IMG/VR virus record: IMGVR_UViG_3300015157_000061
Location: 1-12,847 of that record
Strand: one strand, 5' to 3'
Length of the DNA stretch: 12,847 nucleotides
Origin: a virus
Lineage: Duplodnaviria; Heunggongvirae; Uroviricota; Caudoviricetes
Shown here: positions 1 to 12,288 of the stretch, piece after piece
Layout of the letters: each line of letters starts with the position of its first letter
Position numbering within the stretch: position 1 is the first letter of the stretch
Position numbers and translations under genes: made by a program
Notes under the pieces: generated by a model
What the model was told of the DNA's origin: nothing
Databases searched by the model: none
What the model saw: the letters and a program-made list of their open reading frames with translations, nothing else

Positions 1-441
1 AAGCGGCGCAATATGCTCACTGGCTACCTGCATCAGGTTGTTTTTTGTTTCTTCAGCCTCCCGGATCCGGAACAGTTTTTCTGCTTCAGTATCCTTCACC
101 CAGGCTGTGCCGTTCCACTTCTGAAACTCCCCTTCCGGCGATAACCAGGTAACATTTTCCGGTAACGGACCGAGTTCAGAAATAAATAACTCGTCCCCTG
201 ACGCTACGTCATAAACCGTTTTCCCCCGATGGTCTTCAACGAGATGCCACGATGCCTCATCACTGTTGAAAACAGCCACAAAGCCAGCAGGAATATCTGG
301 TGGTGCAATATCGGTACTGTTTGCTGGCAGACCTGTATGAGGCGGAATATATGCGTCACCTTCACCAATAAATTCATTAGTTCCGGCCAGCAGATTATAA
401 ATTTTTATGGTCCGTGCTTGTTCACTCATTCTGAATGCCAT
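1..441 (-). CDS. tfa: Tail fiber assembly protein (lambda Tfa-like); N-terminal 147 codons, 3' end runs off the window
   Basis: Minus-strand translation from ATG (439-441) reads [47 protein letters not shown]..., near-identical to the remembered lambda Tfa N-terminus. The start overlaps the stf stop (TAATG). Confidence 0.85.
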
Positions 442-3400
442 TATGCAAGCCTCACAATATAGTTAAATGCGATGTTTTTGACGGTGTTTTCCGCGTTACC
501 CGCAGCGTTAACGGTGATGGTGTGTCCATGTGAACCAATCGCAACGGAGTGCGTATGCGCACCAATACCTACAGTATGTGCATGTGCGCCAGAACTTGCT
601 GCAGTACCAGACAGCGAGTGGGTATGAGCACCTGCTGACTGTGTCTGAATACGTTGATAATACGATCTATAGGAAGAAGTCTCCGGGCTTACTTGATACT
701 GTGAATTCTGGACATAAGTGAACCCACCGCCATCATAAAATGCTAACGCAGAACCGCCGCCTCCTGGCCAACGAATACCATTACCATGAGTATGAACACC
801 GGCAGACCCCGTAGAGCCACTCAGACTGTGCGTATGCGCCCCGGTGTTATTCGTGGATTTAGTGCCGTAATCAAACGACGATGTGGTTTTCGTCCCCAAA
901 TCCGTACTGGATGCGCTGGCGCTGTGGGTGTGCGATTTTATGCCGTCCTGTTCCTGAGACAATACGGCCCGGCCACTAGCGGGTTTGCCCTTGATTGTCC
1001 AGCCGCGCATATCTGGAATAACACCTGAAGGATAGGCAATAGCCAGTTTCGGATATGCTGCCTTATCAAACGTCTGCCCCTGCATGATCGCATAACCTGC
1101 AGGTGGTGTATCTGATGGCCACGGCAGCGGAACACCTAGCGGAAACGCTTCAATATTTGCCGAGCCGTCAAATTTTACGCCGTTAATTGTCCTTGCAGTT
1201 TGCAATTTGGTTGCTGTGCTTGCATTACCCGATAAAGATCCAGTGATACCACCACTCGCGTTTAATTTAGTTGCAATTGTAACATTGCCAGTATGGTTAC
1301 TAATTATAAACGGCCTTAAGCTATTGTGCGTACCAAGACTGTTACCCGAATCTGTCAACATAAAATATGTGTTTGATCCATCATTTCGGATAAAGAATCC
1401 ATAGTTGCCATAGGCAATACGCAGACCATTTGCTGACCTTGAAATAACCTCACCAGCAGCAGTTAAACCACCTGAAAGAGTCCCTCCAGTTAATGCCAAT
1501 GCCCCAATATTTGAAGGGGTCAATGTGATATTTGCACTACCATCAAATGACACACCGTTAATCGTTCTGGCTGCCTGAAGTTTCGTGGCGGTCGCAGCAT
1601 TACCTGTAGTGTTTTGATTACCGGTAGCGTTGACTCCAGGCAAGTTGATATCTGCCGATCCATCAAATGCCACGCCCCCAATCTTACGTGCTGTCTTGAT
1701 CTTGGTCGCAGTATCTGCGTTTCCGGTCAAATTACCAGTAACACTACCACCAACTTTTAGTCCATTACCGATGGACACCAACCCTGATCTTAAGTTTATA
1801 GAGAATGGTCTTAATGAACCGATGTCTCCATTTTCCCCCTCCCCTTCATTAGTCGGAATAAGATGAAGATGATCTTCGGAACGCCTAAAAATAAGGCCAA
1901 AGGCTTGGTTGAATATTCGAAGAGCATTTATCGTGCTGATTTTTAACTGCCCTCCCATTGTGTCGCCAGTTTTTTGAACTGAACTATCTTTAACAGTTTT
2001 AACTGCCTTTGGCGTTGCCGCCAGCTTTTCACTGGTGCTGTTTGTTGCACTGCTGAGCTGTACTATCCCCTTTTTCGTCGTGCTCGCATCCTCCAGCGCC
2101 ACGGCGGATGCAATATCCTCTGCCCGTTTTGCTGCTGTCTCGGCGCGCGTTGCCGCGGATTCAGCAGCAACTTTGCTCTGAGATGCAGCCGTCGCACTGC
2201 CTGCCGCCTCTGATGCTTTCGCTGTTGCTGTCGTGGCACTACCTTTCGCTGCTGACGCTTGTCTGGTCGCCTCATCTTTTGAAGCAGACGCAGATGATGC
2301 CGATGACGCCGCTGAACTGGCTGACGATGCGGCTGCCGCCTTAGAGGAAGCAGCATTGTCTGCTGAAGTCTTTGCATTTGTTTCAGAGGTTTTTGCTGCA
2401 GAAGCAGACCTCGCTGCTGCAGTGGCTTGCTCAGTGGCTTTGCCAGCCTTCGTTGTGGCTGTTGAAGCGGATGATGCGGCGCTTTCTGCCGATTTTCCGG
2501 CGGCGGTGGCACTGGCTGAGGCCTGCCCGGCACTTGTTGACGCGGCACTGGCAGATAATGCAGCCGCTGTTTTTGAACCTGCCGCAGCTGAGGCGCTCTG
2601 TCCCGCTGCTGTTTCAGAAGACTTAGCGTTCGTCTCGGACGTTTTTGCCGCCTTCGCGGAATTTCCTGCCGCCGTTGCCGAGGAAGCTGCACTACTGGCA
2701 CTTGATGATGCATTCGTTTCTGAAGATTTCGCTGCCTCTTTTGAGGCCGCCGCACCCCGTGCCGAGGTGGCAGCTTCTGACGCCTTCGTGGTCGCTGTGG
2801 ATGCAGAAGTGGCTGCCGATTTTTGTGATGCTGCGGCATTCGTTTCTGACGTTTTCGCGGCACTGGCGCTGGTAGCTGCCGCGCTTTTTGATGACTCTGC
2901 AGCAGCAGCACTTTTTGCTGCTTCACGGGTCTTTGTCGATGCCGTTCCTGCGCTGGAAGACGCTGACTGAGCCGACGACGCGGCCTGTCCGGCTGACGTG
3001 CTGGCGGCACGTGCTGAGGCTGCAGCATCGGTTGCATGAGTTGCCGCCTCGCTGGCTGATGCACTGGCATCGCTGGCTGATTTTTTCGCGGCTGCCGTAT
3101 TCTGTGCAACCGCGGAGGCGTTACGTGACACCTCTTCCACCATCTGCTCAAAGCGGCGCAGTGCCTCCGGTCGGACATCATCCTCCGTCATGGCACCGAG
3201 AAAATCATTCAGCGTACCTGATCTGGAACCTTCATAGACGGTAATGGTCCCGGCATGTGAAGGCGGAAAACCTTCAACCAGCAGGGTGACGCTGTACTGG
3301 CCATGCTCAACATCCATGCTGTAACGTCCGGCTTCATCCGGATTTTCAGAGGCCACCGTGTTCACCACCACCGTGCTGCTGGTTCGTCTGGCCTTCAGCA

Positions 3401-3467
3401 CAATGGTGCAGTTCTGTACTGGTTTTCCTGTGCCATCTTTAAGCACGCCAGAAATTTTTACTGTCAT
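441..3467 (-). CDS. stf: Side tail fiber protein, full-length lambda Stf-like (1008 aa)
   Basis: Track ORF. N-terminus [20 protein letters not shown]... and C-terminus ...[40 protein letters not shown] match remembered lambda Stf. RBS GGTGGA lies upstream of the ATG. Contains an Ala/Ser-rich segment, a three-copy repeat block and His-rich GAHTHS motifs. Confidence 0.9.
1146..1721 (-). repeat. Three imperfect copies of a 27-aa tail fiber repeat (GNAxTATKLQxARTINGVxFDGSANI) inside stf
   Basis: Protein repeats [54 protein letters not shown] and [27 protein letters not shown] are visible at DNA level as related blocks near 1150-1220, 1540-1610 and 1650-1730. Confidence 0.75.
2030..3095 (-). repeat. 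In-frame low-complexity Ala/Ser/Thr-rich coding repeat within stf (recurring AAKTSETNA units)
   Basis: Stf residues about 125-480 are almost entirely A/S/T/K/E, with KTSETNA recurring several times. The biased composition leaves long spurious open frames on both strands. Confidence 0.8.
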
Positions 3468-3481
3468 ACTTTTCCACCAAT

Positions 3482-3513
3482 AAAAAAAGCCCGCAGCAGT
3501 GACGCCACGGGCT
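3482..3513 (-). terminator. Possible intrinsic terminator or attenuator between lom and stf
   Basis: On the minus strand AGCCCG (3508-3513) pairs with CGGGCT (3488-3493) around a 14-nt loop, followed by a run of seven T. The loop is long, so the hairpin is weak. Confidence 0.35.
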
Positions 3514-3618
3514 TCAGGACAGTGTAACTTTACGTTTCCTCAAACGCAGTTCACCCCATAAGGTGGATGAACCTGCGTATCATAACAATATTTACAGAAG
3601 ATAAATCGGCGTCTGTTG

Positions 3619-4218
3619 TCAGAAACGGTATCCGATACCAACAATAAATGCATCCGTTCGCCAGTCGCCACTACCGGAACCTTCATAAGCAAGGTCAATG
3701 GTTACGGATTCGGTCGGGTTAAACTGCACGCCAGCCCCCCACGCCAGAGACGTGTTGCTGTGGCGACCGTCATCACTTCCGGTCAGCACATCGTGCGTTT
3801 TCCCCTTGTTGTCAGTTACGCGGAGATAATCCCCGGAGAAAGTCGACACACGGCTGTAAGCCACACCCACCATCGCATACGCGCTGAACCATTCATTCAC
3901 GCGTACAGACGGCCCCGCCATCACGCTGAACCAGCGGTTACGCACGGAATCTTCATGCCAGCGGGTATCGCTGTAGTGCGTTTTTTGCTCATCCTCAGCA
4001 TTGGCATAACTGAAGGACGTAATCAGCCCCAGCGCGTCCGTAAACTCATAACGGTATTTCACGTTAATCCCGTTCAGATTATCGCTGCCGGGAGCGTTCG
4101 TACGGGCATGAAGATACCCCGCGCTCAGTGTGGACTGATGTTCAGACGCCCATGCAGGCGCACCGGATACGGACAGACAGATGGCTGCGGACAAAATGGC
4201 TGCACAAACTTTACGCAT
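3619..4218 (-). CDS. lom: Lom outer membrane protein (Ail/Lom family beta-barrel)
   Basis: 199-aa ORF with signal peptide MRKVCAAILSAAICLSVSGAPAWA and C-terminal ...AYEGSGSGDWRTDAFIVGIGYRF ending in Phe, matching remembered lambda Lom motifs. RBS GAGAGG lies upstream. Confidence 0.9.
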   Translation of the reverse strand: MRKVCAAILSAAICLSVSGAPAWASEHQSTLSAGYLHARTNAPGSDNLNGINVKYRYEFTDALGLITSFSYANAEDEQKTHYSDTRWHEDSVRNRWFSVMAGPSVRVNEWFSAYAMVGVAYSRVSTFSGDYLRVTDNKGKTHDVLTGSDDGRHSNTSLAWGAGVQFNPTESVTIDLAYEGSGSGDWRTDAFIVGIGYRF

Positions 4219-4242
4219 AATTACCTCTCGCTTTTCTGCAAT

Positions 4243-4266
4243 AAAAAAGGCGCCATTTCTGGCGCC
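4243..4266 (-). terminator. Rho-independent terminator-like hairpin downstream of the J fragment, upstream of lom
   Basis: Minus strand reads GGCGCC-AGAAAT-GGCGCC (perfect 6-bp stem, 6-nt loop) followed by TTTTTTATT. Confidence 0.55.
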
Positions 4267-4285
4267 CGTATTGGGGTTATAAAAT

Positions 4286-5972
4286 TCAGCTAATCGTGAT
4301 GCCTGCAGTGGCTTTCTTCATCACAACAACCAGCAAATCGCTGATACTTGCTGTGGGATACCAGCCATTTACCCACCATGCTGATACAGAAAACTCCAGC
4401 GTCATGTGGCCGCGACCAGCAGGCATATCAATAACACCACTGTAAATCAGCGTATTATCCAGCGCGGTACGGTTATAAATTTCAGCACCGTTTTTCCGTA
4501 CTATCAGGCGGCATGACGAATAAGTATCGCTGTTCTCCCGCTCATGTCTGGCACCGCTGAAAGCCACCGCCGGAATAACAATCTGCCGGTTAAACGGCTG
4601 ATCGTCATAAACCCTGACGGTAATGGTTCCTGATGGCCAACGCTCCGGTGCACGGGAGTCACGGGGGAAAGCCTTACCCACTGTTTTAACGAGATCGCCT
4701 TCAATCTGGTTTGCAGACAGTTTCCCTCTGATGACACAGTTCTCGTTAATGGTGACATTATTGAGCGTGCCGGTATTCGCCGTGATGGCTCCACTGATAT
4801 CCGCATTGCGGGCTGTCAGCCTGCCATCCGGCGTCAGGGAAAACGTAGGAGGATTGCCGGATGACGTGATGCTCACCGCAAACAGTCGCTTCAGGAACAC
4901 GTCGTTCATGAACAGCTGATTCCCCTGCGCCACAAACAGCGGCGTGGTGTTGCCGTTCTCCGGGGTAATCATCGCGATACGGTCCGCCTGCAGCAGAATA
5001 CTGCTCAGCGTCTGACCATCAACATCCTCAATCCCCGCGCCAATCCCGGCCACATAGGGAATACCGTTTTTTGTTTTCTGCACCTTCAGCATATACATGG
5101 CATTCAGCTCATTGCGCGTGTCTGACTGAACCCGCTGGATTTGCTGTATGGTCACGGCCTGGTCACCCAGCTTTTTATCCGTGGTCGAGGTAATTTCACT
5201 CCCTTTTTTATCCACGTACTGGCGGACCTGTGCTATCTGTCGGGCGTTTTCTGACTGCCCCTGGCTGACAGTCTGTGAGATTTCACTGCTCACCCGGTCC
5301 ACTTTCTGGCTCACCTGCGCGATGGCCAGTGTCTGGTCCTCATTCTTTTTCGCAACCAGCTGCGTGAGGCTGTTTTCCGCCTTCCCGATTTTCCGGGTCA
5401 CTTCTGCGATATCCGTGTCCATCCGCTGACGGATGTCTTCTTCCAGTTGCGTGACCTCCGTACGCAGCGCTGAAGCATCAATGCGCTCTTTCAGTGCCTG
5501 GCCCAGAAGCGTCTCATCTATCAGCCCCCGGAAAATTTCCAGATACCCTTCACCATCATTGCTGGGCTGCCCGCTGGCTTCCACAAAAGCAGATTTTCCC
5601 ACCAGGTTGACGCTTCGCACGTAAAACCAGAAATCCGTCCCCGGCTTAATCCGGCTCCCATGGACAGTCCACTGACTGCCGGTCCCCAGATAACGGGCAG
5701 ATTTTTCCACCTGTGCTGTGTTCGTGATGCGTTTTTCTGAGAACCAGAATTCAAACTGTACCGTCGGGTCATACACCGCAAGACGCGGGACCGCCGTTAT
5801 CTGAAAATACCCCGGCGTCAGCTCAATGGTGGCGGGTTTTGCAGGTGCGTTAATCCTGAACGTGGTGGTGGCCGGTTCGCCCTGCTGGCCATAACTGTTA
5901 ATCGCCCTGACCGTCAGGGTGTATTCCCCCAGTGGCAGGCCGCTGAAACGGTGCTCCGTGTCTGCGGTGCTG
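4286..5972 (-). pseudogene. J: 5'-truncated tail tip / host specificity protein J; C-terminal part only, including the receptor-binding end
   Basis: The frame reads ...[79 protein letters not shown]... through ...[26 protein letters not shown]..., matching the remembered C-terminal portion of lambda J. An in-frame TGA sits at 5973-5975 and there is no ATG upstream; the track ORF begins at an internal GTG (5776). The N-terminal majority of J is absent. Confidence 0.8.
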
Positions 5973-6462
5973 CCAGTTCTCCGGGCAGGCGTTCACGCCG
6001 GATACGGTCAACATTCTCATCAAACGCCTGTTTCAGTGGGGCCGCCATCGGGATTTTCACCACATCAATAGGGTAACGGTTTTTCCCGGCCACACGCTGC
6101 ATGACATGCCAGCGACCGTTTTTTAATCGCTGAATGAATGCCCGCTGATACCGATGCTGACCGGCTTTAAGTATGCTGTTCGGACGACGGCCCAGCATCC
6201 TGATCCCCAGCTTAATCACTGGAAGATCACCGCGGTTAACGATAATTTTTGCGTTCGGATTTCTGACCGTCGCCCGTTTCAGTCTGGACCGTTCCTTAAC
6301 CAGTTTCCGGCGTACCTTTGTCTCCCGGGCAACCTGTGATGAAGACTGATTAATCGCCGTTGTGGCCACGCGGTTAATCGTCATTGCTGAAGCCGCCGGA
6401 ATGGCGTTTTTACGAACCCGGCTCAGATTATCAATCGCCTGATCAAGCCCTTTTATCGCCAT
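5914..6462 (-). CDS. Z: Tail completion protein Z-like, with the C-terminal ~19 aa replaced by out-of-frame J sequence at a deletion junction
   Basis: [66 protein letters not shown]...[30 protein letters not shown]...RIRRERLP matches remembered lambda gpZ. RBS GGGGGA precedes the ATG at 6460-6462. The tail [19 protein letters not shown] is a different reading frame of J DNA. Confidence 0.7.
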
Positions 6463-6477
6463 AATTTCCCCCTGCGT

Positions 6478-8073
6478 TTATCGTCGCCGGTTAACAGCGG
6501 GTGGTTGCCCACGGTTGTCCGTCCCCACTTCACACAGATAAACGCCCCGCTGATTGCGGGTTTTCGGCATGGTGATCACCGGCTTGCCATAGACAGACGC
6601 GCCTTTTACCGGCAGCACACGGAAAACACCGTGTTTTTTTGACCTCTGGTAGACGATTTCACCATCGATCCCCCCGGTGTCCCAGCAGACACGGGAAATG
6701 GTCATTTCGGTGCCATCCGCATGGCGGTATTTTTTGTTGATCGCCGCATCCACACGTAACAGCGTCTCTTCCTCATCAGGACGCCCCATAATGATGATTT
6801 TATCCACCAGAAAAGCTTCCTCTCCCGGTGCCCATCCCCAGACATACATCTCAAAACGGTTTCGCTGCGAGTCAATGCCCGCCGTCAGATAAACCACCCG
6901 GGCAGGCACCGCCGCCGTGTAACGCACAACCTTATCCATCAGCACCTGGTGATCGAGTTTTTCGCCCACGGCCTCTTCCCAGGTCTCGCCCAGCGTGGTG
7001 TTCACAAAGGTTTTCAGGCCGTTGGGATCTTTCAGTGCATCCAGCCAGTCATAGACTATCTGTACCCAGGTGGTGAACGGACTGTACGCTGTCCAGATAT
7101 GGAACGTGATGGAGCGCGGCGGCGGAATTTCATTATCCGCGGCGCTGAAAAACGTCAGACCGTCACGGGTCCACATCCCCGTGTTTTCACAGATCCACCG
7201 CCCGTTGCTCTGGTCAAGCTCAGACTGATGGATCACGCAGCCATGATGTTCACAGAGGTAGAAAACGCTTTCGGGGCTGTCCTTCTCCCATTTAAGGCCA
7301 AAAGGCGTGGATTCATCGCCAAATTTCAGATACTGCTCCTCCCCACAGTGTGGGCAGGGCACATAAAAACGCATGAAATGCGCCGACTCGTTGGCCGCTT
7401 TTTCGATCTGGCAGGTGCCTTTGATTTTAGGCGTCGAGCCGCGAATGGATTTGGGCCATACAGAGCCCTCAATACGTTTATCCCCAAGCAGGGTTGGCGA
7501 ACCCTCTTTTTCGACATCCGGTTCGAACGAGGAAAGTTCGTCATAGCAGACCACGTCCACGGATTTTTCACGGTAGTTTTTGGCGGCAGCGCCGCCCAGG
7601 CACCAGAAACCCACACCCGATGAAAAGCGTTTCAGCGTGAGGGTATTGTCACGATGTTTACGCCCCAGCCATGGAAAAAGGTCTTTCAGACATGGCACAT
7701 CCCGAATCGTCGCCTCCACGTGAGACTTCATAAAATCTTCAGCGGCAGAATCCGTGGGCTGAAAAAGCAGACTGTTTCGGGATTTATGCTCAATAAAATA
7801 CCCGACCACCCCCAGCAACATCTTTGTATAGCCAACACGGGCAGATTTAATCAGATTAACAGTCCGGATCTGATCATTCCCCATGCTGTTCATGATGGCG
7901 ATCTGGAACGGCAGCGTTTTCCATTCTCCCTCACCATATGAAGATTCTTTAGGCAGATAATAATTTTGATCAGCCCATTCAACTGGCGTCACCGGCAATG
8001 CCCTTATCAGGGGCTGTAATGCTGTTGTGACAGCACTCATCATATTATTCAGTTGTTGCTCTGATATATTCAT
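6478..8073 (-). pseudogene. A: Terminase large subunit (lambda gpA-like), truncated: about 520 N-terminal residues then a 12-aa foreign tail
   Basis: MNISEQQLNN...VEWADQNYYLPKESSYGEGEWKTLPFQIAIMN...KSARVGYTKML...FMRFYVPCPHCGEEQYLKFGD...IWTAYSPFTTWVQIV...KGASVYGKPV...GVYLCEVGTD tracks remembered lambda gpA. It then ends ...NRGQPPAVNRRR* instead of the remaining ~110 aa. The likely true start is the internal Met (8071-8073), which overlaps the nu1 3' end as in lambda; the track ORF starts at 8130. Confidence 0.85.
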
Positions 8074-8554
8074 CGAGTAAATCCGGTAATTTATCCCCCG
8101 CCCGCGCACACTGATTTGCCCCCTTCGCAATAAGGGTTTTCAGATGGTCAAGATGGCGCGGTGTTAAATCAGGAAACTGTCGCTGCATGGATAAAGGGAT
8201 GGAATCAAGCGTACTGGATAACGCCATTGCCAGCTTGCTGAGGGCAAAAATACAGAACCCGGTATCAATAAGTTTTCCTTTTGACACCTCATTTTTTAAC
8301 TGCTGTGTAACAGCCTGTTCTGCTGTCAGTTCCCATCTGGCAATAAGCAATTTCTCCTCATAGTCGTCTTCGCTATCGCCATCAGGCACATCGTTTTTAC
8401 TTCTTCTCAGATACGATATGTAAAAATCGCGCCAGGCATCCAGATCCAGTTGCCCTCGCTTATTCGATATCGGGGCACCCGGCAATTTCTGCAATCTGCG
8501 AAGCTGGCGATCGGTCAGACTTAAATGCCTGGCAACTTCAGTCTGCGTAGCCAC
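8045..8554 (-). CDS. nu1: Terminase small subunit (Nu1-like DNA packaging protein), GTG start
   Basis: 169-aa ORF with an N-terminal HTH-like segment (TQTEVARHLSLTDRQLRRLQ). The C-terminal half (DTGFCIFALSKLAMALSSTLDSIPLSMQRQFPDLTPRHLDHLK...LLDEYI) parallels remembered lambda Nu1. It lies about 185 bp from cosN. Confidence 0.85.
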   Translation of the reverse strand: MATQTEVARHLSLTDRQLRRLQKLPGAPISNKRGQLDLDAWRDFYISYLRRSKNDVPDGDSEDDYEEKLLIARWELTAEQAVTQQLKNEVSKGKLIDTGFCIFALSKLAMALSSTLDSIPLSMQRQFPDLTPRHLDHLKTLIAKGANQCARAGDKLPDLLDEYIRATTE

Positions 8555-8737
8555 TCCTCACCTCGCAAAAACTCTCACTTCACAATCACAACAAAACCGG
8601 TCATGTCCGGCTTACATGTCTATTTTTTGTGCATGTCCGGTTCACAGAAGACCTCTTTTTTTATTTTTCATATAGTTAACTTGAAGAGAAACCGGACATG
8701 GTTCCCGGAAAATTTTCATAAATAGCGAAAACCCGCG
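8555..8737 (-). promoter_or_regulatory. cosB-like terminase-binding region with three copies of a 9-bp element (CATGTCCGG) plus a partial copy
   Basis: CATGTCCGG occurs at 8602-8610 and 8632-8640, and inverted (CCGGACATG) at 8692-8700. ACATGTC at 8614-8620 is a partial copy. AT-rich tracts lie between them. The position between cosN and nu1 equals lambda cosB (R3-I1-R2-R1). Confidence 0.6.
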
Positions 8738-8749
8738 AGGTCGCCGCCC
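8738..8749 (-). other. cosN cohesive-end site (12-nt GGGCGGCGACCT on the minus strand)
   Basis: Minus strand 8760 to 8701 reads AGACCGTTACG-GGGCGGCGACCT-CGCGGGTTTTCGCTATTTATGAAAATTTTCCGG, a near-exact match to the remembered lambda cos junction. Confidence 0.85.
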
Positions 8750-8972
8750 CGTAACGGTCTGGATCACCGGAAAGGACCCGCCAACGACTTTCGCGTGCAG
8801 GCATTAAAAATTTTGCAGTTCCATGCCTAGTTGAAACCTCGATTTCTATAACATCCAATTTTGTAAATTTAGATATAGCTCAACTTTTCCCAATGTTTTC
8901 AAGTGTATAAAAACAATTGGCGTTACGCCATAACACTATACTTAGGATAAGTAAAGATTTTAAGGAGTTTTA

Positions 8973-10040
8973 ATGAGTCAACATCAATATTATCCACAGC
9001 TGAAATGGAAGCCTGCTGAATATGAATCTCTGATGCTTTTAGATCAAACTACGCTCTCTGGTTTTACTCCGATCATTACCATTCCAGACATAGACTGGGA
9101 TTATGAAAACGAATGCTACAAGAAGAGTTTGAGTTCTTACTTATCTGACTTCGGTATTAACCTTGCGGCATCCTGGAAAGCCAATCGTCCTGTTTTGCTG
9201 GATGTTAAATATTTAGATAAACATGGTTCGAGCCGCCATCATCCTCTAGATATGTGTATCCAAGATGCTAGAGTAAATGGTAAGGAAATTATCCCTGTTG
9301 TTTCTCCCGCATATTCAACAAACTATATACATGCTGTTCAACGCAACTTAATCAATGGGCTCGCTATATCTATCACCCCCCAGACATGGCACCAATTCAC
9401 AAGTCTGGTTAACCACTTAAATATTCATCCTAGTTTAATTGATGTAATCATTGATTTTGGAGATATTCAAAACGCAACTGATAGTTTAAAACAACAAGCA
9501 TTAAGCATGGTCAACACATTATCAGGCCAAGCTCCGTGGAGAAACTTGATTTTATCTTCAACCGCATACCCAGCATCACAGGCAGGGATACCGCAACATC
9601 AAGTTCATCATATTCCGCGCCATGAATACGATCTTTGGATGTACGTAGTACAGAATTTTAGCAATGGAAGAACGCCAAGTTTTAGTGATTATCCCACCGC
9701 TAGCTCTACCATTACGAGCGTAGACCCACGCTTCATGTCTCAGTATGTCTCAGTGAGATATTCGAACGATACCTCATGGATCTTTGTAAAAGGTACCGCA
9801 GTTAAAGGAAATGGATGGGGCCAAACTAAAAACTTATGTACTACCCTTGTTAGTTCGCCAGAGTATCAAGTCTTTGGTTCCAAATTTAGTTGGGGGGATG
9901 ATTACATTTACCAAAGATCATTAGGCGCTAACAAATCTGGCGGCTCTAAAGAATGGCGTAAAGTTGCACATACGCACCATATTACGTTAGTCGTGAGACA
10001 GCTTTATTGGTTGGCGCAGACTCAGCCTGCCAAGCCTTAA
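8973..10040 (+). CDS. Hypothetical 355-aa protein in an AT-rich cargo island; possibly Beta-protein / sce7725-like (unverified)
   Basis: Track ORF with a strong RBS (AAGGAG, 5-nt spacer) before ATG 8973, AT-rich composition unlike the flanking phage genes, and no recognisable catalytic motif. The family suggestion rests only on size and the N-terminal YYPQLKWKPAEYESL pattern, from memory. Confidence 0.75.
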   Translation: MSQHQYYPQLKWKPAEYESLMLLDQTTLSGFTPIITIPDIDWDYENECYKKSLSSYLSDFGINLAASWKANRPVLLDVKYLDKHGSSRHHPLDMCIQDARVNGKEIIPVVSPAYSTNYIHAVQRNLINGLAISITPQTWHQFTSLVNHLNIHPSLIDVIIDFGDIQNATDSLKQQALSMVNTLSGQAPWRNLILSSTAYPASQAGIPQHQVHHIPRHEYDLWMYVVQNFSNGRTPSFSDYPTASSTITSVDPRFMSQYVSVRYSNDTSWIFVKGTAVKGNGWGQTKNLCTTLVSSPEYQVFGSKFSWGDDYIYQRSLGANKSGGSKEWRKVAHTHHITLVVRQLYWLAQTQPAKP

Positions 10041-10602
10041 CTTTCCAGCCTACGCGTTTCTTTAAGGCTGTTCTGACTTCAAGCCTGAGATTCGCTATTG
10101 GAATATTTTCCGCAATAATATTCCATAACTCAAATCGGGGCTTGCTTTTGATTCCTTTGGAATAGCCCCATCGTTCAAGTACGTCGATACATTCATCTTT
10201 CCAAAGCAATTGAGCGAGCATCAATGTGTCATGGTTTCGATTAAGCTTTTCTCCACGCATGTGCTTTATAAGAATGGCGCCTTTTGGCCCAACAGAAACC
10301 GTTTTAACGCCCCACCAACCTGGGATTAACTTTAATGCTCCCTCAAGATGTTTCTCAGCTACGACAAGAGTAACCTTGTCCATTACAGAAGAATAATGCT
10401 TGATTTGAAGAGGCAAACGCTCCAAAGAGTCATATTCACTTTTGAGCTCGTACCCGTGTATAACACCATTTATTACAGCAATGTCTGCTCTACTGGCGCC
10501 AAGGGATATGGAAAATTCATCGACCACAAGGCAGTCTGGATCTAAATGCGATTCTTTCAAAAGCTTATGATGCACCGCGAACCTAACATCTTGATCTTTC
10601 AT
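9982..10602 (-). CDS. Hypothetical 206-aa protein with a PD-(D/E)xK nuclease-like motif; possibly sce7726-like (unverified)
   Basis: Track ORF with a strong RBS (AGGGAGTAAGGAG, 5-nt spacer) before ATG 10600-10602. Motif VVDE(29)F...RAD(40)IAVINGVIHGYE(52)LK(54) fits the E / D / ExK restriction-endonuclease-fold signature. Its 3' end overlaps the 355-aa gene by 59 bp, convergently. Confidence 0.75.
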   Translation of the reverse strand: MKDQDVRFAVHHKLLKESHLDPDCLVVDEFSISLGASRADIAVINGVIHGYELKSEYDSLERLPLQIKHYSSVMDKVTLVVAEKHLEGALKLIPGWWGVKTVSVGPKGAILIKHMRGEKLNRNHDTLMLAQLLWKDECIDVLERWGYSKGIKSKPRFELWNIIAENIPIANLRLEVRTALKKRVGWKVKAWQAESAPTNKAVSRLT

Positions 10603-10624
10603 GACTTCTCCTTACTCCCTCCGT

Positions 10625-10665
10625 TATTGAATTATAGCGCACTGCATTTTACTGCATTTGAGAGA
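10625..10665 (-). promoter_or_regulatory. Putative promoter/operator for the 206-aa gene: perfect TATAAT -10 plus tandem direct repeat
   Basis: Minus-strand TATAAT at 10636..10631, about 28 nt upstream of the ATG. Tandem ACTGCATTTT / ACTGCATTTG (10641-10660) occupies the -35 position; no canonical TTGACA. Confidence 0.35.
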
Positions 10666-10952
10666 TTTGACCACTTCAATCACAAAATGCTTATCTGCAG
10701 CAACAAGATTCATAGCCATACGACTATGGTGATTACCTTTTGTCTGGAAAACTGACCATTCCACGAAGATCAGATAGGTCTATAGAATCTTGGTTTGTCA
10801 TAGCGTTCGCCTTACTTTGAGATGAACCTTTGCTGCATAGGAGATCAGCCCGTCAAGGCTCACCAGCACTAACTGACTACTCAAAGGCTCATTCCAAAGG
10901 GTTTGGTTCGACGTGGTTGAGTGCACTGCGGTGCGCGGTGAAATACCTGTAC

Positions 10953-10982
10953 AAAAATGCCCCGCATCTGCGAGGCATTTTC
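10953..10982. terminator. Bidirectional rho-independent terminator-like hairpin downstream of Rz
   Basis: AAAAATGCC-C-CGC-ATCT-GCG-A-GGCATTTTC: GC-rich stem of about 11 bp with one mismatch, flanked by an A-run upstream and a T-run downstream. Confidence 0.55.
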
Positions 10983-11018: not shown

Positions 11019-11456
11019 TTATTTTAAGCACTGCGTCCTGATGTACTCCTGCAGGTAGTTGACCTGCGCGGTTATCTTGTCGATTCCACTTCGGAGACGG
11101 TAATAATTGAGTTCAGCATCTGCTGTAAGTCTTGGGCTTTCTCCATTGCCCATGCCGCTGGCTCCGGTCGTTGACTTTGCACAGGTAGCGGCGACTTGCA
11201 GGCGCTTACGCCCAGCAGAAACATCAGCACGGAGGCTTTCGATAGTCGCGTTAGCATCAGCAAGCTCCTTTGTATATCTGGCATCGAGTTCTGCTACGTC
11301 ACGTTGACGCTTCTGCATATCAGCGATTGTGGATGTGGCTTTATCGCGCTGCTCTTTGTAGGTTATGGCGTTATCACGGTAATGATTCAGCCCCAGACTA
11401 AGCGCACCACAGGCCACCAGCAGGGCAATGATGACCACGCACAGTACGCGGTTCAT
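11019..11456 (-). CDS. Rz: Rz i-spanin (inner membrane spanin component)
   Basis: 145-aa ORF with an N-terminal TM segment and NHYRDNAITYKEQRDK...RQRDVAELDARYTKELADA...SPRL, closely matching remembered lambda Rz. GGTGG RBS precedes the start. Confidence 0.9.
   Translation of the reverse strand: MNRVLCVVIIALLVACGALSLGLNHYRDNAITYKEQRDKATSTIADMQKRQRDVAELDARYTKELADANATIESLRADVSAGRKRLQVAATCAKSTTGASGMGNGESPRLTADAELNYYRLRSGIDKITAQVNYLQEYIRTQCLK
11072..11257 (-). CDS. Rz1: Rz1 o-spanin lipoprotein, embedded in the +1 frame of Rz
   Basis: Embedded ORF MLTRLSKASVLMFLLGVSAC-KSPLPVQSQRPEPAAW...: signal peptide with lipobox (VSAC) followed by a Pro-rich stretch. The track ORF starts 9 codons upstream; the second Met is taken as the start. 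Confidence 0.7.
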   Translation of the reverse strand: MLTRLSKASVLMFLLGVSACKSPLPVQSQRPEPAAWAMEKAQDLQQMLNSIITVSEVESTR

Positions 11457-11754: not shown

Positions 11755-12288
11755 TTATCTGTCAATTCCCCAGCACGCCAGCGCACTCTCCTGGTCGCGA
11801 CGGGATACCTGACCGTAACAGTTGTTTGAGCGAATACGGCAGTCTCTGCCACCGTCCTTAATCCACCAGCGAATCGCCTCACACGCTCCCCTGCGATCAC
11901 CTGCATTAATTCGTTTATAAAACGTCGACGGAAAACACTTACCGGGGCCAATGTTGTACGGACAGAATGACGCGATCCCCGCTTTCTGGGGTTCACTCAA
12001 TGGCACTCTGATGTTTTTCTCCACCCATGCCAGCGCCTTATCACGCTCAATGGCGTTAACCCGGTCGCATTTTTCCTTCGACAACTTCATGCCCGGAACG
12101 ACAGGTTTGCCATCCACCAGGATGGCACCGCGGCAGATGGTCCAGATACCCGCGCCATCACGGTATGCCGTGGTGTGGTTACCTTCCTTTTCATCCAGAA
12201 ACTGGTCGAGAATGTCAGGCGCAGGCGCACCAGCGGCAATCAGCGCCAGAACGGCAGCCGACAGGCCGTATCTGATTTTTGCGTTCAT
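11755..12288 (-). CDS. R: Phage endolysin (T4-type lysozyme fold; N-terminal SAR-like hydrophobic segment)
   Basis: 177-aa ORF. EGNHTTAYRDGAGIWT fits the E-x8-D-x5-T catalytic signature of phage lysozymes. The N-terminus (YGLSAAVLALIAAGAPA) is weakly hydrophobic and Gly/Ala-rich, as in SAR endolysins. No obvious SD sequence. Confidence 0.85.
   Translation of the reverse strand: MNAKIRYGLSAAVLALIAAGAPAPDILDQFLDEKEGNHTTAYRDGAGIWTICRGAILVDGKPVVPGMKLSKEKCDRVNAIERDKALAWVEKNIRVPLSEPQKAGIASFCPYNIGPGKCFPSTFYKRINAGDRRGACEAIRWWIKDGGRDCRIRSNNCYGQVSRRDQESALACWGIDR

What the first reader, a model, noticed from the sequence alone, without database searches (positions are those of the whole stretch)
8973..10602. 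Candidate two-gene defense module: 355-aa unknown protein plus PD-(D/E)xK nuclease in the Rz-to-cos cargo slot
Two genes with strong SD sequences sit in a visibly AT-rich island inside an otherwise lambda-like late region, exactly where lambdoid phages carry accessory cargo (lambda has bor here). The 206-aa protein has an E29 / D40 / E52-x-K54 arrangement typical of restriction-endonuclease-fold nucleases. The 355-aa protein has no recognisable catalytic motif; its size and N-terminus (YYPQLKWKPAEYESL) recall the Beta-protein (phage P4 beta, sce7725-like) family, and the partner recalls sce7726-like proteins. A nuclease effector paired with a larger sensor-like partner in a prophage hotspot is the usual signature of anti-phage or abortive-infection systems. 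As far as I know this pairing has not been characterised.
Basis: partly seen in the sequence, partly recalled or inferred. Interest (0 to 1): 0.85.

Follow-up and report, generated by a model that had tools for sequence, protein, structure and literature searches.

The report
Gop-less beta/cII nuclease pair in prophage
Next to the packaging site of a decayed lambda-like prophage sit two tail-to-tail overlapping genes, a TIM-barrel "beta" protein and a restriction-type nuclease, which are relatives of two of the three genes of satellite phage P4's known anti-phage system but lack its toxin gene, and this bare pair turns out to be the widespread core of that family.

Summary
ORFs 8973-10040 (+, 355 aa) and 9982-10602 (-, 206 aa) lie in a low-GC island between cosN (8738-8749) and Rz.

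The family guesses were right:
- The 355-aa protein is a full-length Pfam Beta_protein (8e-56) and is predicted to be a TIM barrel.
- The 206-aa protein belongs to the NCBIfam sce7726 family (2e-54), the family of P4 cII. It has a PD-(D/E)xK fold, and E29/D40/E52/K54 are invariant in about 128 homologs.

The pairing is not new. It is the beta/cII part of P4 gop-beta-cII, a validated anti-phage system. RefSeq already names both genes in 124 E. coli genomes. Beta relatives also serve as PD-lambda-2 component C.

What differs is that no gop or PD-lambda-2 A/B gene is present. In other genomes and viral contigs, 78 of 79 evaluable sce7726 loci and 45 of 45 beta loci carry the convergent pair, mostly bare. 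In 77 loci the two conserved C-termini are encoded antisense to each other in an exact 38-nt register.

My best reading is a self-contained prophage defence or abortive-infection module, with the nuclease as effector, beta as controller, and antisense cross-regulation between them. This function is inferred and was not tested. I class it as a new variant of a known kind, of moderate interest.

The parts
8738..8749 (-). cosN cohesive-end sequence GGGCGGCGACCT of the lambdoid prophage. It marks one edge of the cargo slot; the beta ATG lies 224 bp away.
   Evidence: Exact match. The Nu1-type terS gene lies next to it at 8045-8554.
8849..8912 (+). Conserved non-coding block upstream of beta (..TTAGATATAGCTCAA..GTATAAAA..). 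Probable beta promoter or operator, and the left limit of the mobile cassette.
   Evidence: This is the only upstream stretch conserved (75-82%) with the Klebsiella, Pantoea and viral-contig relatives. The promoter function is inferred.
8962..8967 (+). Shine-Dalgarno AAGGAG of the beta gene
   Evidence: Read from the sequence
8973..10040 (+). Beta-family gene, 355 aa. Homolog of P4 beta and PD-lambda-2 C; predicted TIM barrel.
9982..10040 (.). 59-nt antisense overlap of the two coding 3' ends. It encodes the beta C-terminal helix and the disordered tail of the nuclease.
   Evidence: Residues 188-206 of the nuclease have pLDDT below 50. There is no terminator or unusual RNA structure here.
9982..10602 (-). 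sce7726-family gene, 206 aa. P4 cII homolog; PD-(D/E)xK nuclease core plus a C-terminal helical domain.
10603..10708 (-). Conserved 5' region of the nuclease gene, with SD AAGGAG (10613-10608), a perfect TATAAT (10636-10631) and a TGGTCA-16-TAAAAT promoter-like site (10673-10646). Right limit of the cassette.
   Evidence: Sequence, promoter scan, conservation limited to about 100 nt upstream
10952..10978 (-). Hairpin plus T-run about 45 nt after the Rz stop. Likely terminator separating the lysis genes from the cassette.
   Evidence: Read from the sequence. The scan tool did not call it, so this is inferred.
11019..11456 (-). Rz spanin gene, the other edge of the cargo slot
   Evidence: Pfam Phage_lysis 2e-37

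Best explanation
The pair is a gop-less beta/cII (sce7726) cassette of about 1.85 kb. It is carried as a moron with its own promoters, beside cos, in a now-defective lambdoid prophage. It belongs to the same gene family as the beta and cII genes of P4 gop-beta-cII, and beta is also related to PD-lambda-2 component C.

Shown here:
- The family assignments.
- The predicted TIM-barrel fold of beta and PD-(D/E)xK fold of the nuclease, with invariant catalytic residues.
- Near-obligate convergent linkage of the two genes across phyla and phages.
- A deeply conserved antisense overlap of their 3' ends.
- Absence of gop and of PD-lambda-2 A/B.

Inferred:
- The bare pair is a self-sufficient unit that protects the lysogen against other phages by abortive infection or DNA cleavage.
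- The sce7726 protein acts as a metal-dependent DNase effector.
- Beta is the controller, either a sensor or an inhibitor, as it is for Gop in P4 and for the toxic B protein in PD-lambda-2.
- No terminator fits between the genes, so each mRNA must run antisense into the other gene. I propose this sets the beta-to-nuclease ratio through transcriptional interference or 3' RNA duplexes.
- In this prophage, late transcription runs in the nuclease's direction, so induction would favour the nuclease over beta.
For: Identity. RefSeq naming in 124 of 5,426 complete E. coli genomes.

Folds. Invariant E/D/E/K. Purifying selection.

Linkage:
- 78 of 79 evaluable sce7726-seeded genome loci from many phyla have a convergent beta gene; an 80th locus (L010) ends at a contig edge.
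- 45 of 45 beta-seeded viral contigs have a convergent sce7726 gene.
- The same pair occurs in phage Rac-SA53 and in Gordonia, Mycolicibacterium and Pasteurella phages.

Overlap:
- 124 of 128 pairs overlap.
- 122 of 128 have an overlap length of 2 mod 3.
- 77 share an exact 38-nt core register.
- Third-codon-position entropy falls from 1.91 to 1.05 bits inside it.

Defence link:
- gop-beta-cII protects against lambda and P1 (PMC9122126).
- It is triggered by phage orf184.
- 22 of 80 loci are complete PD-lambda-2 A-B-C operons followed by a convergent sce7726 gene.

Context:
- The low-GC cassette lies in a variable cos-Rz slot.
- Both genes are intact although the prophage has lost its head and tail genes.
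- The nuclease is almost never found without beta, whereas beta occurs without it. This fits an effector that depends on its controller.
Against: - No phenotype has been measured for any bare pair.
- In both tested relatives the toxic component is another protein (Gop, or PD-lambda-2B) that is absent here.
- The published PD-lambda-2 clone extends only 396 bp past the beta stop. An E. coli PD-lambda-2-like locus has no sce7726 gene at all. Beta-dependent defence therefore does not need this nuclease.
- Five loci have a split or truncated beta next to an intact nuclease that keeps E/D/E/K. This argues weakly against a constitutively toxic nuclease that needs beta as antitoxin. Assembly errors are possible, and 5 versus 0 is not significant.
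- The closest structural neighbour, 3dnx, is from what I recall as a DNA-repair family (MmcB-like).
- sce7726-like nucleases occur in lytic Staphylococcus and Bacillus phages where the beta search found nothing, so other roles exist.
- Beta has conserved polar residues typical of an enzyme rather than a simple antitoxin.
- The promoters and the antisense effect are predictions only.
Confidence: 0.55

Rival explanations
1. Addiction (toxin-antitoxin-like) module. The pair mainly stabilises its host element by post-segregational killing, and any phage defence is incidental.
For: - Gop/beta is described as toxin/antitoxin-like.
- PD-lambda-2 is TA-derived.
- The cassette survives intact in a decayed prophage.
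- Tight physical locking of the two genes by overlap is what a selfish pair would favour.
- The nuclease almost never occurs without beta.
Against: - Five loci keep an intact nuclease beside a broken beta.
- The related TA-like systems that were tested do defend against phages.
- The position in phage cargo hotspots, next to other superinfection genes, is typical of defence morons.
Confidence: 0.15
2. Restriction-modification-like pair. Beta is a TIM-barrel enzyme that modifies DNA or another nucleic acid, in the manner of the transglycosylases TGT and DpdA. The sce7726 nuclease cuts unmodified invader DNA.
For: - Beta is a TIM barrel with invariant Asp, His and Arg residues.
- Convergent gene order is, from general knowledge, common in type II R-M systems.
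- The asymmetry, with orphan beta existing but orphan nuclease almost never, resembles orphan methyltransferases.
Against: - The DpdA and TGT scores are no better than those of dozens of unrelated TIM barrels.
- No zinc-site cysteines are conserved in beta.
- In PD-lambda-2, loss of beta abolishes defence but is not lethal.
- In P4, beta counters a small membrane protein rather than a nuclease.
Confidence: 0.1
3. The pair serves the phage's own life cycle, for example DNA repair or recombination processing, or lysogeny control as the historical name cII implies, rather than immunity.
For: - sce7726-like nucleases are present in many lytic Staphylococcus and Bacillus phages.
- The nuclease gene is co-oriented with late transcription.
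Against: - The genes are non-essential in P4.
- They are present in only 124 of 5,426 E. coli genomes while the flanks occur in 4,621.
- They are interchangeable with unrelated cargo in the same slot.
- They are retained in a prophage that can no longer make virions.
- They are also common in chromosomal, non-phage contexts and in PD-lambda-2 operons.
Confidence: 0.1

Closest known systems
P4 gop-beta-cII (DefenseFinder Gop_beta_cll; PADLOC models gop/beta/cll)
   Same: - Homologous beta (355 aa in both, 22% identity) and cII/sce7726 (27% identity, same E..D..ExK motif).
- Beta and cII are convergent in both.
- Both cassettes lie next to cos in a variable cargo hotspot.
   Different: - No gop here or in any of the other loci fetched apart from P4 itself. 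Gop is the only component with published toxicity.
- P4 has a 27-nt spacer with an annotated terminator and a longer cII (264 aa). Here the genes overlap by 59 nt.
- The host element is a lambdoid prophage, not a P4 satellite.
PD-lambda-2 (Vassallo et al. 2022): HigB-like A, Xre-HTH/M78 peptidase B, beta-like C
   Same: The 355-aa protein scores better against the PD-Lambda-2_C models (4e-32) than against P4 'beta'. In 22 of 80 loci a complete A-B-C operon is followed by the same convergent, overlapping sce7726 gene.
   Different: A and B are absent from the window. The experimentally tested E. coli system was cloned without room for an sce7726 gene, and an E. coli relative has a TIGR04141/DUF6119 gene downstream instead.
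PD-(D/E)xK nucleases of the MmcB-like/DUF1052 type (PDB 3dnx), SfsA, NucS, and the Can2/Cap4 nuclease domains
   Same: The same core fold and catalytic E/D/ExK arrangement.
   Different: Sequence identity is only 13-19%. The protein has an extra C-terminal four-helix domain (residues about 126-182) and an obligate convergent TIM-barrel partner. No sensor domain for cyclic nucleotides is present.
Type I toxin-antitoxin loci with convergent 3'-overlapping transcripts (txpA/RatA and bsrG/SR4 of B. subtilis; recalled from general knowledge)
   Same: Convergent transcription units whose 3' ends are complementary over tens of nucleotides. That arrangement could let one RNA control the other.
   Different: Here both partners are conserved protein-coding genes and the overlap is doubly coding. 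RNA-level control is only inferred.

Membership tests
Pfam Beta_protein (PF14350) | Full-length match to the family HMM above the gathering score | tested here: met
   190.4 bits against a cut-off of 27, residues 6-342 on profile 1-342. The precomputed PF14350 label is on all homologs.
NCBIfam sce7726_fam (NF033832) | Match above the curated cut-off | tested here: met
   184.1 bits against a cut-off of 70, residues 1-183 on profile 1-182 of 184
   No sce7725 hit at E<=1 for the window protein, nor at E<=0.01 for six other beta proteins, including a myxobacterial one
PD-(D/E)xK nuclease superfamily | Conserved acidic/lysine motif (E ... D ... E-x-K) on the core strands | tested here: met
   E29, D40, E52 and K54 are invariant in A1/A2 and in all 128-129 evaluable homologs
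PD-(D/E)xK nuclease superfamily | Restriction-endonuclease-like alpha/beta fold | tested here: met
PD-(D/E)xK nuclease superfamily | Metal-dependent nuclease activity | not testable with these tools
   Needs purified protein and DNA or RNA substrates
Gop-beta-cII anti-phage system (P4) | gop gene (small membrane toxin) immediately upstream of beta | tested here: not met
   No ORF abuts the beta start. tblastn with P4 Gop finds nothing in the window, nor in the other loci fetched by that point except P4 itself.
Gop-beta-cII anti-phage system (P4) | beta homolog | tested here: met
   PADLOC 'beta' 3.5e-10 over the full length. BLASTP against P4 beta: 22% identity, E 3e-7.
Gop-beta-cII anti-phage system (P4) | cII homolog convergent to beta | tested here: met
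   PADLOC 'cll' 4e-31. 27% identity to P4 cII. Convergent in both.
Gop-beta-cII anti-phage system (P4) | Protection against phages; cell death on trigger expression | not testable with these tools
   Published for P4 only
PD-lambda-2 | HigB-like component A and Xre-HTH/M78-peptidase component B upstream of the beta-like C | tested here: not met
   There are 224 bp of non-coding DNA between cos and beta. A and B are found in 22 other loci but not here.
PD-lambda-2 | Component C (beta-like) | tested here: met
   PD-Lambda-2_C models 4e-32 and 2e-25
Type II toxin-antitoxin pair | One product toxic alone and neutralised by the other | not testable with these tools
   The only indirect data are five loci with a broken beta and an intact nuclease

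The most novel reading that the evidence does not exclude
The convergent beta/sce7726 pair, not gop-beta or HigB/Xre-peptidase, is the ancient autonomous core of a defence-system superfamily spanning many bacterial phyla. The superfamily includes both P4 gop-beta-cII and many PD-lambda-2 loci. Its exactly conserved, doubly coding 38-nt antisense junction (expanded to a tail overlap in the window's clade) would be a functional switch. Convergent transcription or 3' RNA duplexes would set the nuclease-to-controller ratio, and phage infection or prophage induction would flip it.
Probability: 0.3. Interest if true: 0.75.

Novelty: new variant of a known kind. Interest (0 to 1): 0.55.

Why it matters
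Current descriptions treat gop-beta-cII as a Gop-toxin/beta-antitoxin system and PD-lambda-2 as a three-gene HigB/Xre-peptidase/beta system.

The data here show that beta and the cII-type nuclease travel together, tail to tail, in at least Proteobacteria, Firmicutes, Bacteroidota, Patescibacteria, Myxococcota and actinobacteriophages. Usually no other partner is attached. The nuclease is also the unnoticed fourth gene beside many PD-lambda-2 operons.

If the bare pair defends on its own, several consequences follow:
- The role of cII, never dissected, becomes central.
- Two catalogued systems merge into one family.
- Detection tools that require gop or A/B, as I recall their rules, would miss most members.
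- The locked antisense overlap would be a rare, testable case of long-conserved antiparallel overlapping bacterial genes with a possible regulatory purpose.

If the pair has no phenotype, it is an ordinary annotated accessory pair.

Tried and rejected
- A gop-like third gene: none. No ORF abuts beta, and tblastn with P4 Gop finds nothing.
- A conserved small ORF upstream of the nuclease: rejected. Only about 100 nt of non-coding sequence is conserved.
- sce7725 NCBIfam membership of beta: no hit.
- A solved structure of either family by sequence: none.
- The afdb50 fold library was unavailable.
- A terminator or structured RNA at the gene junction, or a known RNA family: none.
The fraction of all beta genes that have an sce7726 partner is therefore unknown beyond the viral sample.
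- Gordonia phage CarolAnn gp43/44 defence as a possible tested relative: unrelated. Those genes are co-transcribed and do not appear among the hits.
- The original P4 paper (Ghisotti et al. 1990, PMC249035) is not held. From memory only, it reports that mutating the cII terminator impairs beta expression.
- The 2026 NAR paper on P2/P4 hotspots does not mention gop or cII.
Full report
**1. What is in the window**

The window is a lambdoid prophage whose late genes run on the minus strand:
- tail fibre (441-3467)
- Lom (3619-4218)
- the C-terminal part of J (4286-5776)
- gpZ (5914-6462)
- a large terminase cut short inside its nuclease domain (6478-8130)
- Nu1-type small terminase (8045-8554)
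- Rz (11019-11456)
- lysozyme (11755-12288)

The portal, capsid, tail-tube and tape-measure genes of intact relatives are missing (compare), so the prophage is defective.

cosN (GGGCGGCGACCT) lies at 8738-8749. Between cos and Rz there is a low-GC stretch, 0.36-0.44 against 0.47-0.58 around it. It holds the two ORFs of the finding: 8973-10040 (+, 355 aa) and 9982-10602 (-, 206 aa). Each has an AAGGAG ribosome-binding site.

The ORFs are convergent and their 3' ends overlap by 59 nt.

**2. Identity of the two proteins**

The 355-aa protein:
- It is a full-length member of Pfam Beta_protein (8e-56).
- It hits the PADLOC models for PD-lambda-2 component C (4e-32) and P4 'beta' (3.5e-10).

The 206-aa protein:
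- It is an NCBIfam sce7726-family protein (2e-54).
- It hits the PADLOC 'cll' model (4e-31).

Direct comparison with phage P4 gives 22% identity to beta, which is also 355 aa, and 27% to cII with the same motif. PHROGs files both proteins under families of unknown function.

RefSeq already annotates the identical pair as 'beta family protein | sce7726 family protein'. This holds in 124 of 5,426 complete E. coli genomes, between terS and Rz of otherwise intact prophages.

**3. Structure**

The nuclease model is confident: pLDDT 89 and pTM 0.83, with only the tail 188-206 disordered.
- Foldseek finds the MmcB-like protein 3dnx and SfsA bound to DNA.
- E29, D40, E52 and K54 are invariant in curated alignments that include P4 cII. 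R38, N45, G46, S55, D58, R62 and Q66 are invariant as well.
- E29, D40, E52 and K54 are also invariant in every evaluable homolog among the fetched loci.

Across 40 diverse beta proteins, P33, D161, D239 and H336 are invariant. Y6, P8, E16, D77, R216, Y240, Y263, D309 and W328 are nearly so. That pattern looks more like an enzyme or ligand pocket than a simple antitoxin.

Both genes are under purifying selection, with dN/dS 0.03-0.08 and dS near saturation.

**4. What is known about relatives**

- P4 carries gop, beta and cII next to its cos site. Rousset et al. showed that gop-beta-cII protects against lambda and P1, and they cite Ghisotti et al. for Gop being toxic without beta (PMC9122126).
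- Silas et al. found that phage gene orf184 triggers cell death through gop-beta-cII.
- Vassallo et al. described PD-lambda-2. Its A component is HigB-like. Its B component is an Xre-HTH/peptidase fusion that is toxic and is neutralised by A. [quoted passage not shown]
- I found no paper that dissects cII or tests a bare beta/cII pair.

**5. Comparative genomics**

*Nuclease-seeded scan.* A scan of one genome per species, seeded with the nuclease, returned 80 loci. They come from Proteobacteria, Firmicutes, Bacteroidota, Patescibacteria, Myxococcota, Nitrospirota, Elusimicrobiota and others.
- 78 loci have a beta gene placed convergently right after the nuclease.
- One of the two exceptions ends at a contig edge.

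*Beta-seeded scan.* A scan of viral contigs seeded with beta gave 45 loci, and all 45 have the convergent nuclease.

*Phage records.* The pair also occurs in phage Rac-SA53 and in Gordonia, Mycolicibacterium and Pasteurella phages.

*Family size.* The beta family comprises 4,356 clusters at 50% identity.

*Genes upstream of beta.*
- In 22 of the 80 loci there is a PD-lambda-2_B protein (E about 1e-140), usually preceded by a PD-lambda-2_A protein.
- Two Desulfovibrio loci have a small membrane/coiled-coil ORF there.
- P4 has gop, which is found nowhere else in the sample.
- Most loci, including the window and all viral contigs, have nothing.

The bare pair is therefore the common form. Gop and the A/B genes look like add-ons.

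*Converse case.* An E. coli PD-lambda-2-like operon has no nuclease. A convergent TIGR04141/DUF6119 gene lies downstream instead. The published PD-lambda-2 clone leaves only 396 bp beyond beta. So beta can work without this nuclease, while the nuclease almost never occurs without beta.

**6. The overlap**

- Stop-to-stop overlap is positive in 124 of 128 pairs. The median was 50 nt in the first 80 pairs measured.
- The overlap length equals 2 mod 3 in 122 of 128 pairs.
- Measured between homologous profile positions, the two conserved cores overlap by exactly 38 nt in 77 loci, 71 of them unique sequences.
- In those loci the nuclease's '..LK.R..WR..' is encoded antisense to beta's '..HH...V..QL..L..'.
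- Inside this stretch the entropy of the nuclease's third codon positions drops from 1.91 to 1.05 bits. That is as expected if both frames are constrained.

The window's enterobacterial clade is derived. A 39-nt expansion has separated the cores. Klebsiella, Edwardsiella, Pantoea and Pectobacterium forms keep an 11-nt overlap. The E. coli form reads on for 16 more codons to give 59 nt. P4 has lost the overlap and has a terminator in a 27-nt spacer.

In the window there is no terminator or unusual RNA structure at the junction and no Rfam match. From memory, and not checked here, Ghisotti et al. reported that mutating the P4 cII terminator impairs beta expression. That would fit cross-talk by convergent transcription.

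**7. Cassette limits and context**

Among close relatives, conservation outside the ORFs is limited to 8849-8912 upstream of beta and about 100 nt upstream of the nuclease. The latter stretch holds a perfect TATAAT at 10636-10631. This gives a cassette of about 1.85 kb.

The same cos-Rz slot carries Rha/YlcI or KilA-N/DUF1398 genes in other E. coli prophages. A second, divergent E. coli pair sits in a different slot of Rac-SA53. The cassette therefore behaves as a mobile moron.

**8. Interpretation**

*Shown.* The family membership, the folds, the invariant active site, the near-obligate convergent linkage, the conserved doubly coding junction, and the absence of the known toxin genes.

*Inferred, confidence about 0.55.*
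- The bare pair is a self-contained prophage defence or abortive-infection unit.
- The nuclease is the effector and beta the controller.
- Unavoidable antisense transcription tunes their ratio.

*Rivals.* An addiction module (0.15), an R-M-like modifier/nuclease pair (0.10), and a phage life-cycle function (0.10).

*Main counter-evidence.*
- No phenotype has been tested.
- The toxins of the tested relatives are absent.
- Beta-dependent defence works without the nuclease.
- A few loci have a broken beta beside an intact nuclease.

**9. Verdict**

The pairing is already known as part of P4's system and is already annotated, so it is not a new kind of system. It is a gop-less variant whose autonomy, effector and antisense junction are untested. 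Novelty: new variant of a known kind. Interest: 0.55.

Noticed in passing
Loci L003, L004, L013-L084, L123-L129 (junction of the sce7726 and beta genes); window 9982-10040: In 77 loci from many phyla and from actinophages, the conserved C-terminal cores of the two convergent genes overlap by exactly 38 nt. The frame relation is fixed, and third-position variability is reduced inside the overlap. The window's clade has a 39-nt expansion that separates the cores.
   Followed up: yes
L038, L044, L046, L051-L053, L057-L062, L069, L070, L072, L075-L080, L082: Complete PD-lambda-2 A-B-C operons (HigB-like, Xre-HTH/M78 peptidase, beta) are followed by a convergent, overlapping sce7726 nuclease gene. 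That gene is not part of the published three-gene definition.
   Followed up: yes
L085 (E. coli NZ_CP123310, locus 619-5168): An E. coli PD-lambda-2-like operon has no sce7726 gene. A convergent TIGR04141/DUF6119 gene ends 263 nt downstream of beta and may be an alternative partner.
   Followed up: partly
L055:6602-7087 and L064:3149-3649 (minus strand): In two Desulfovibrio-type loci the position of gop is occupied by a non-homologous 161-166-aa protein with one transmembrane helix flanked by coiled coils. It may be an analogue of the small membrane toxin Gop.
   Followed up: partly
window 4286-8130: The prophage is defective. The large terminase is truncated within its nuclease domain and is followed directly by gpZ and then only the C-terminal part of J. 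Portal, capsid, tail-tube and tape-measure genes are missing.
   Followed up: partly
window 8602-8616, 8632-8646, 8689-8700: Three copies of CATGTCCGG (two direct, one inverted) lie between terS and cosN. Their placement suggests terminase-binding (cosB-type) sites.
   Followed up: no
window 2000-3200 (within tail-fibre ORF 441-3467): A long Ala/Ser/Thr-rich low-complexity stretch in the tail-fibre protein. GC is about 0.58-0.60 with strong AT skew, and long spurious ORFs appear in other frames.
   Followed up: no
phage collection hits: Weaker sce7726-like nuclease matches (about 28% identity, 60-80% coverage) occur in 241 Staphylococcus and 33 Bacillus phage records, several of them with large genomes. 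The beta search found no beta there, which suggests a different role for that branch.
   Followed up: no
L032, L047, L052, L056, L121: Five loci have a split or truncated beta gene beside a full-length sce7726 gene that keeps E/D/E/K. No locus showed the reverse. These may be assembly errors, or a hint that the nuclease is tolerated without beta.
   Followed up: partly
L022-L027, L029 (Afipia/Bradyrhizobium group): Small ORFs flank the pair on both sides: 61 aa ending 2 nt before sce7726, and 73 aa overlapping the beta start by 34 nt. Neither has a Pfam match, and it is unclear whether they are real genes.
   Followed up: no
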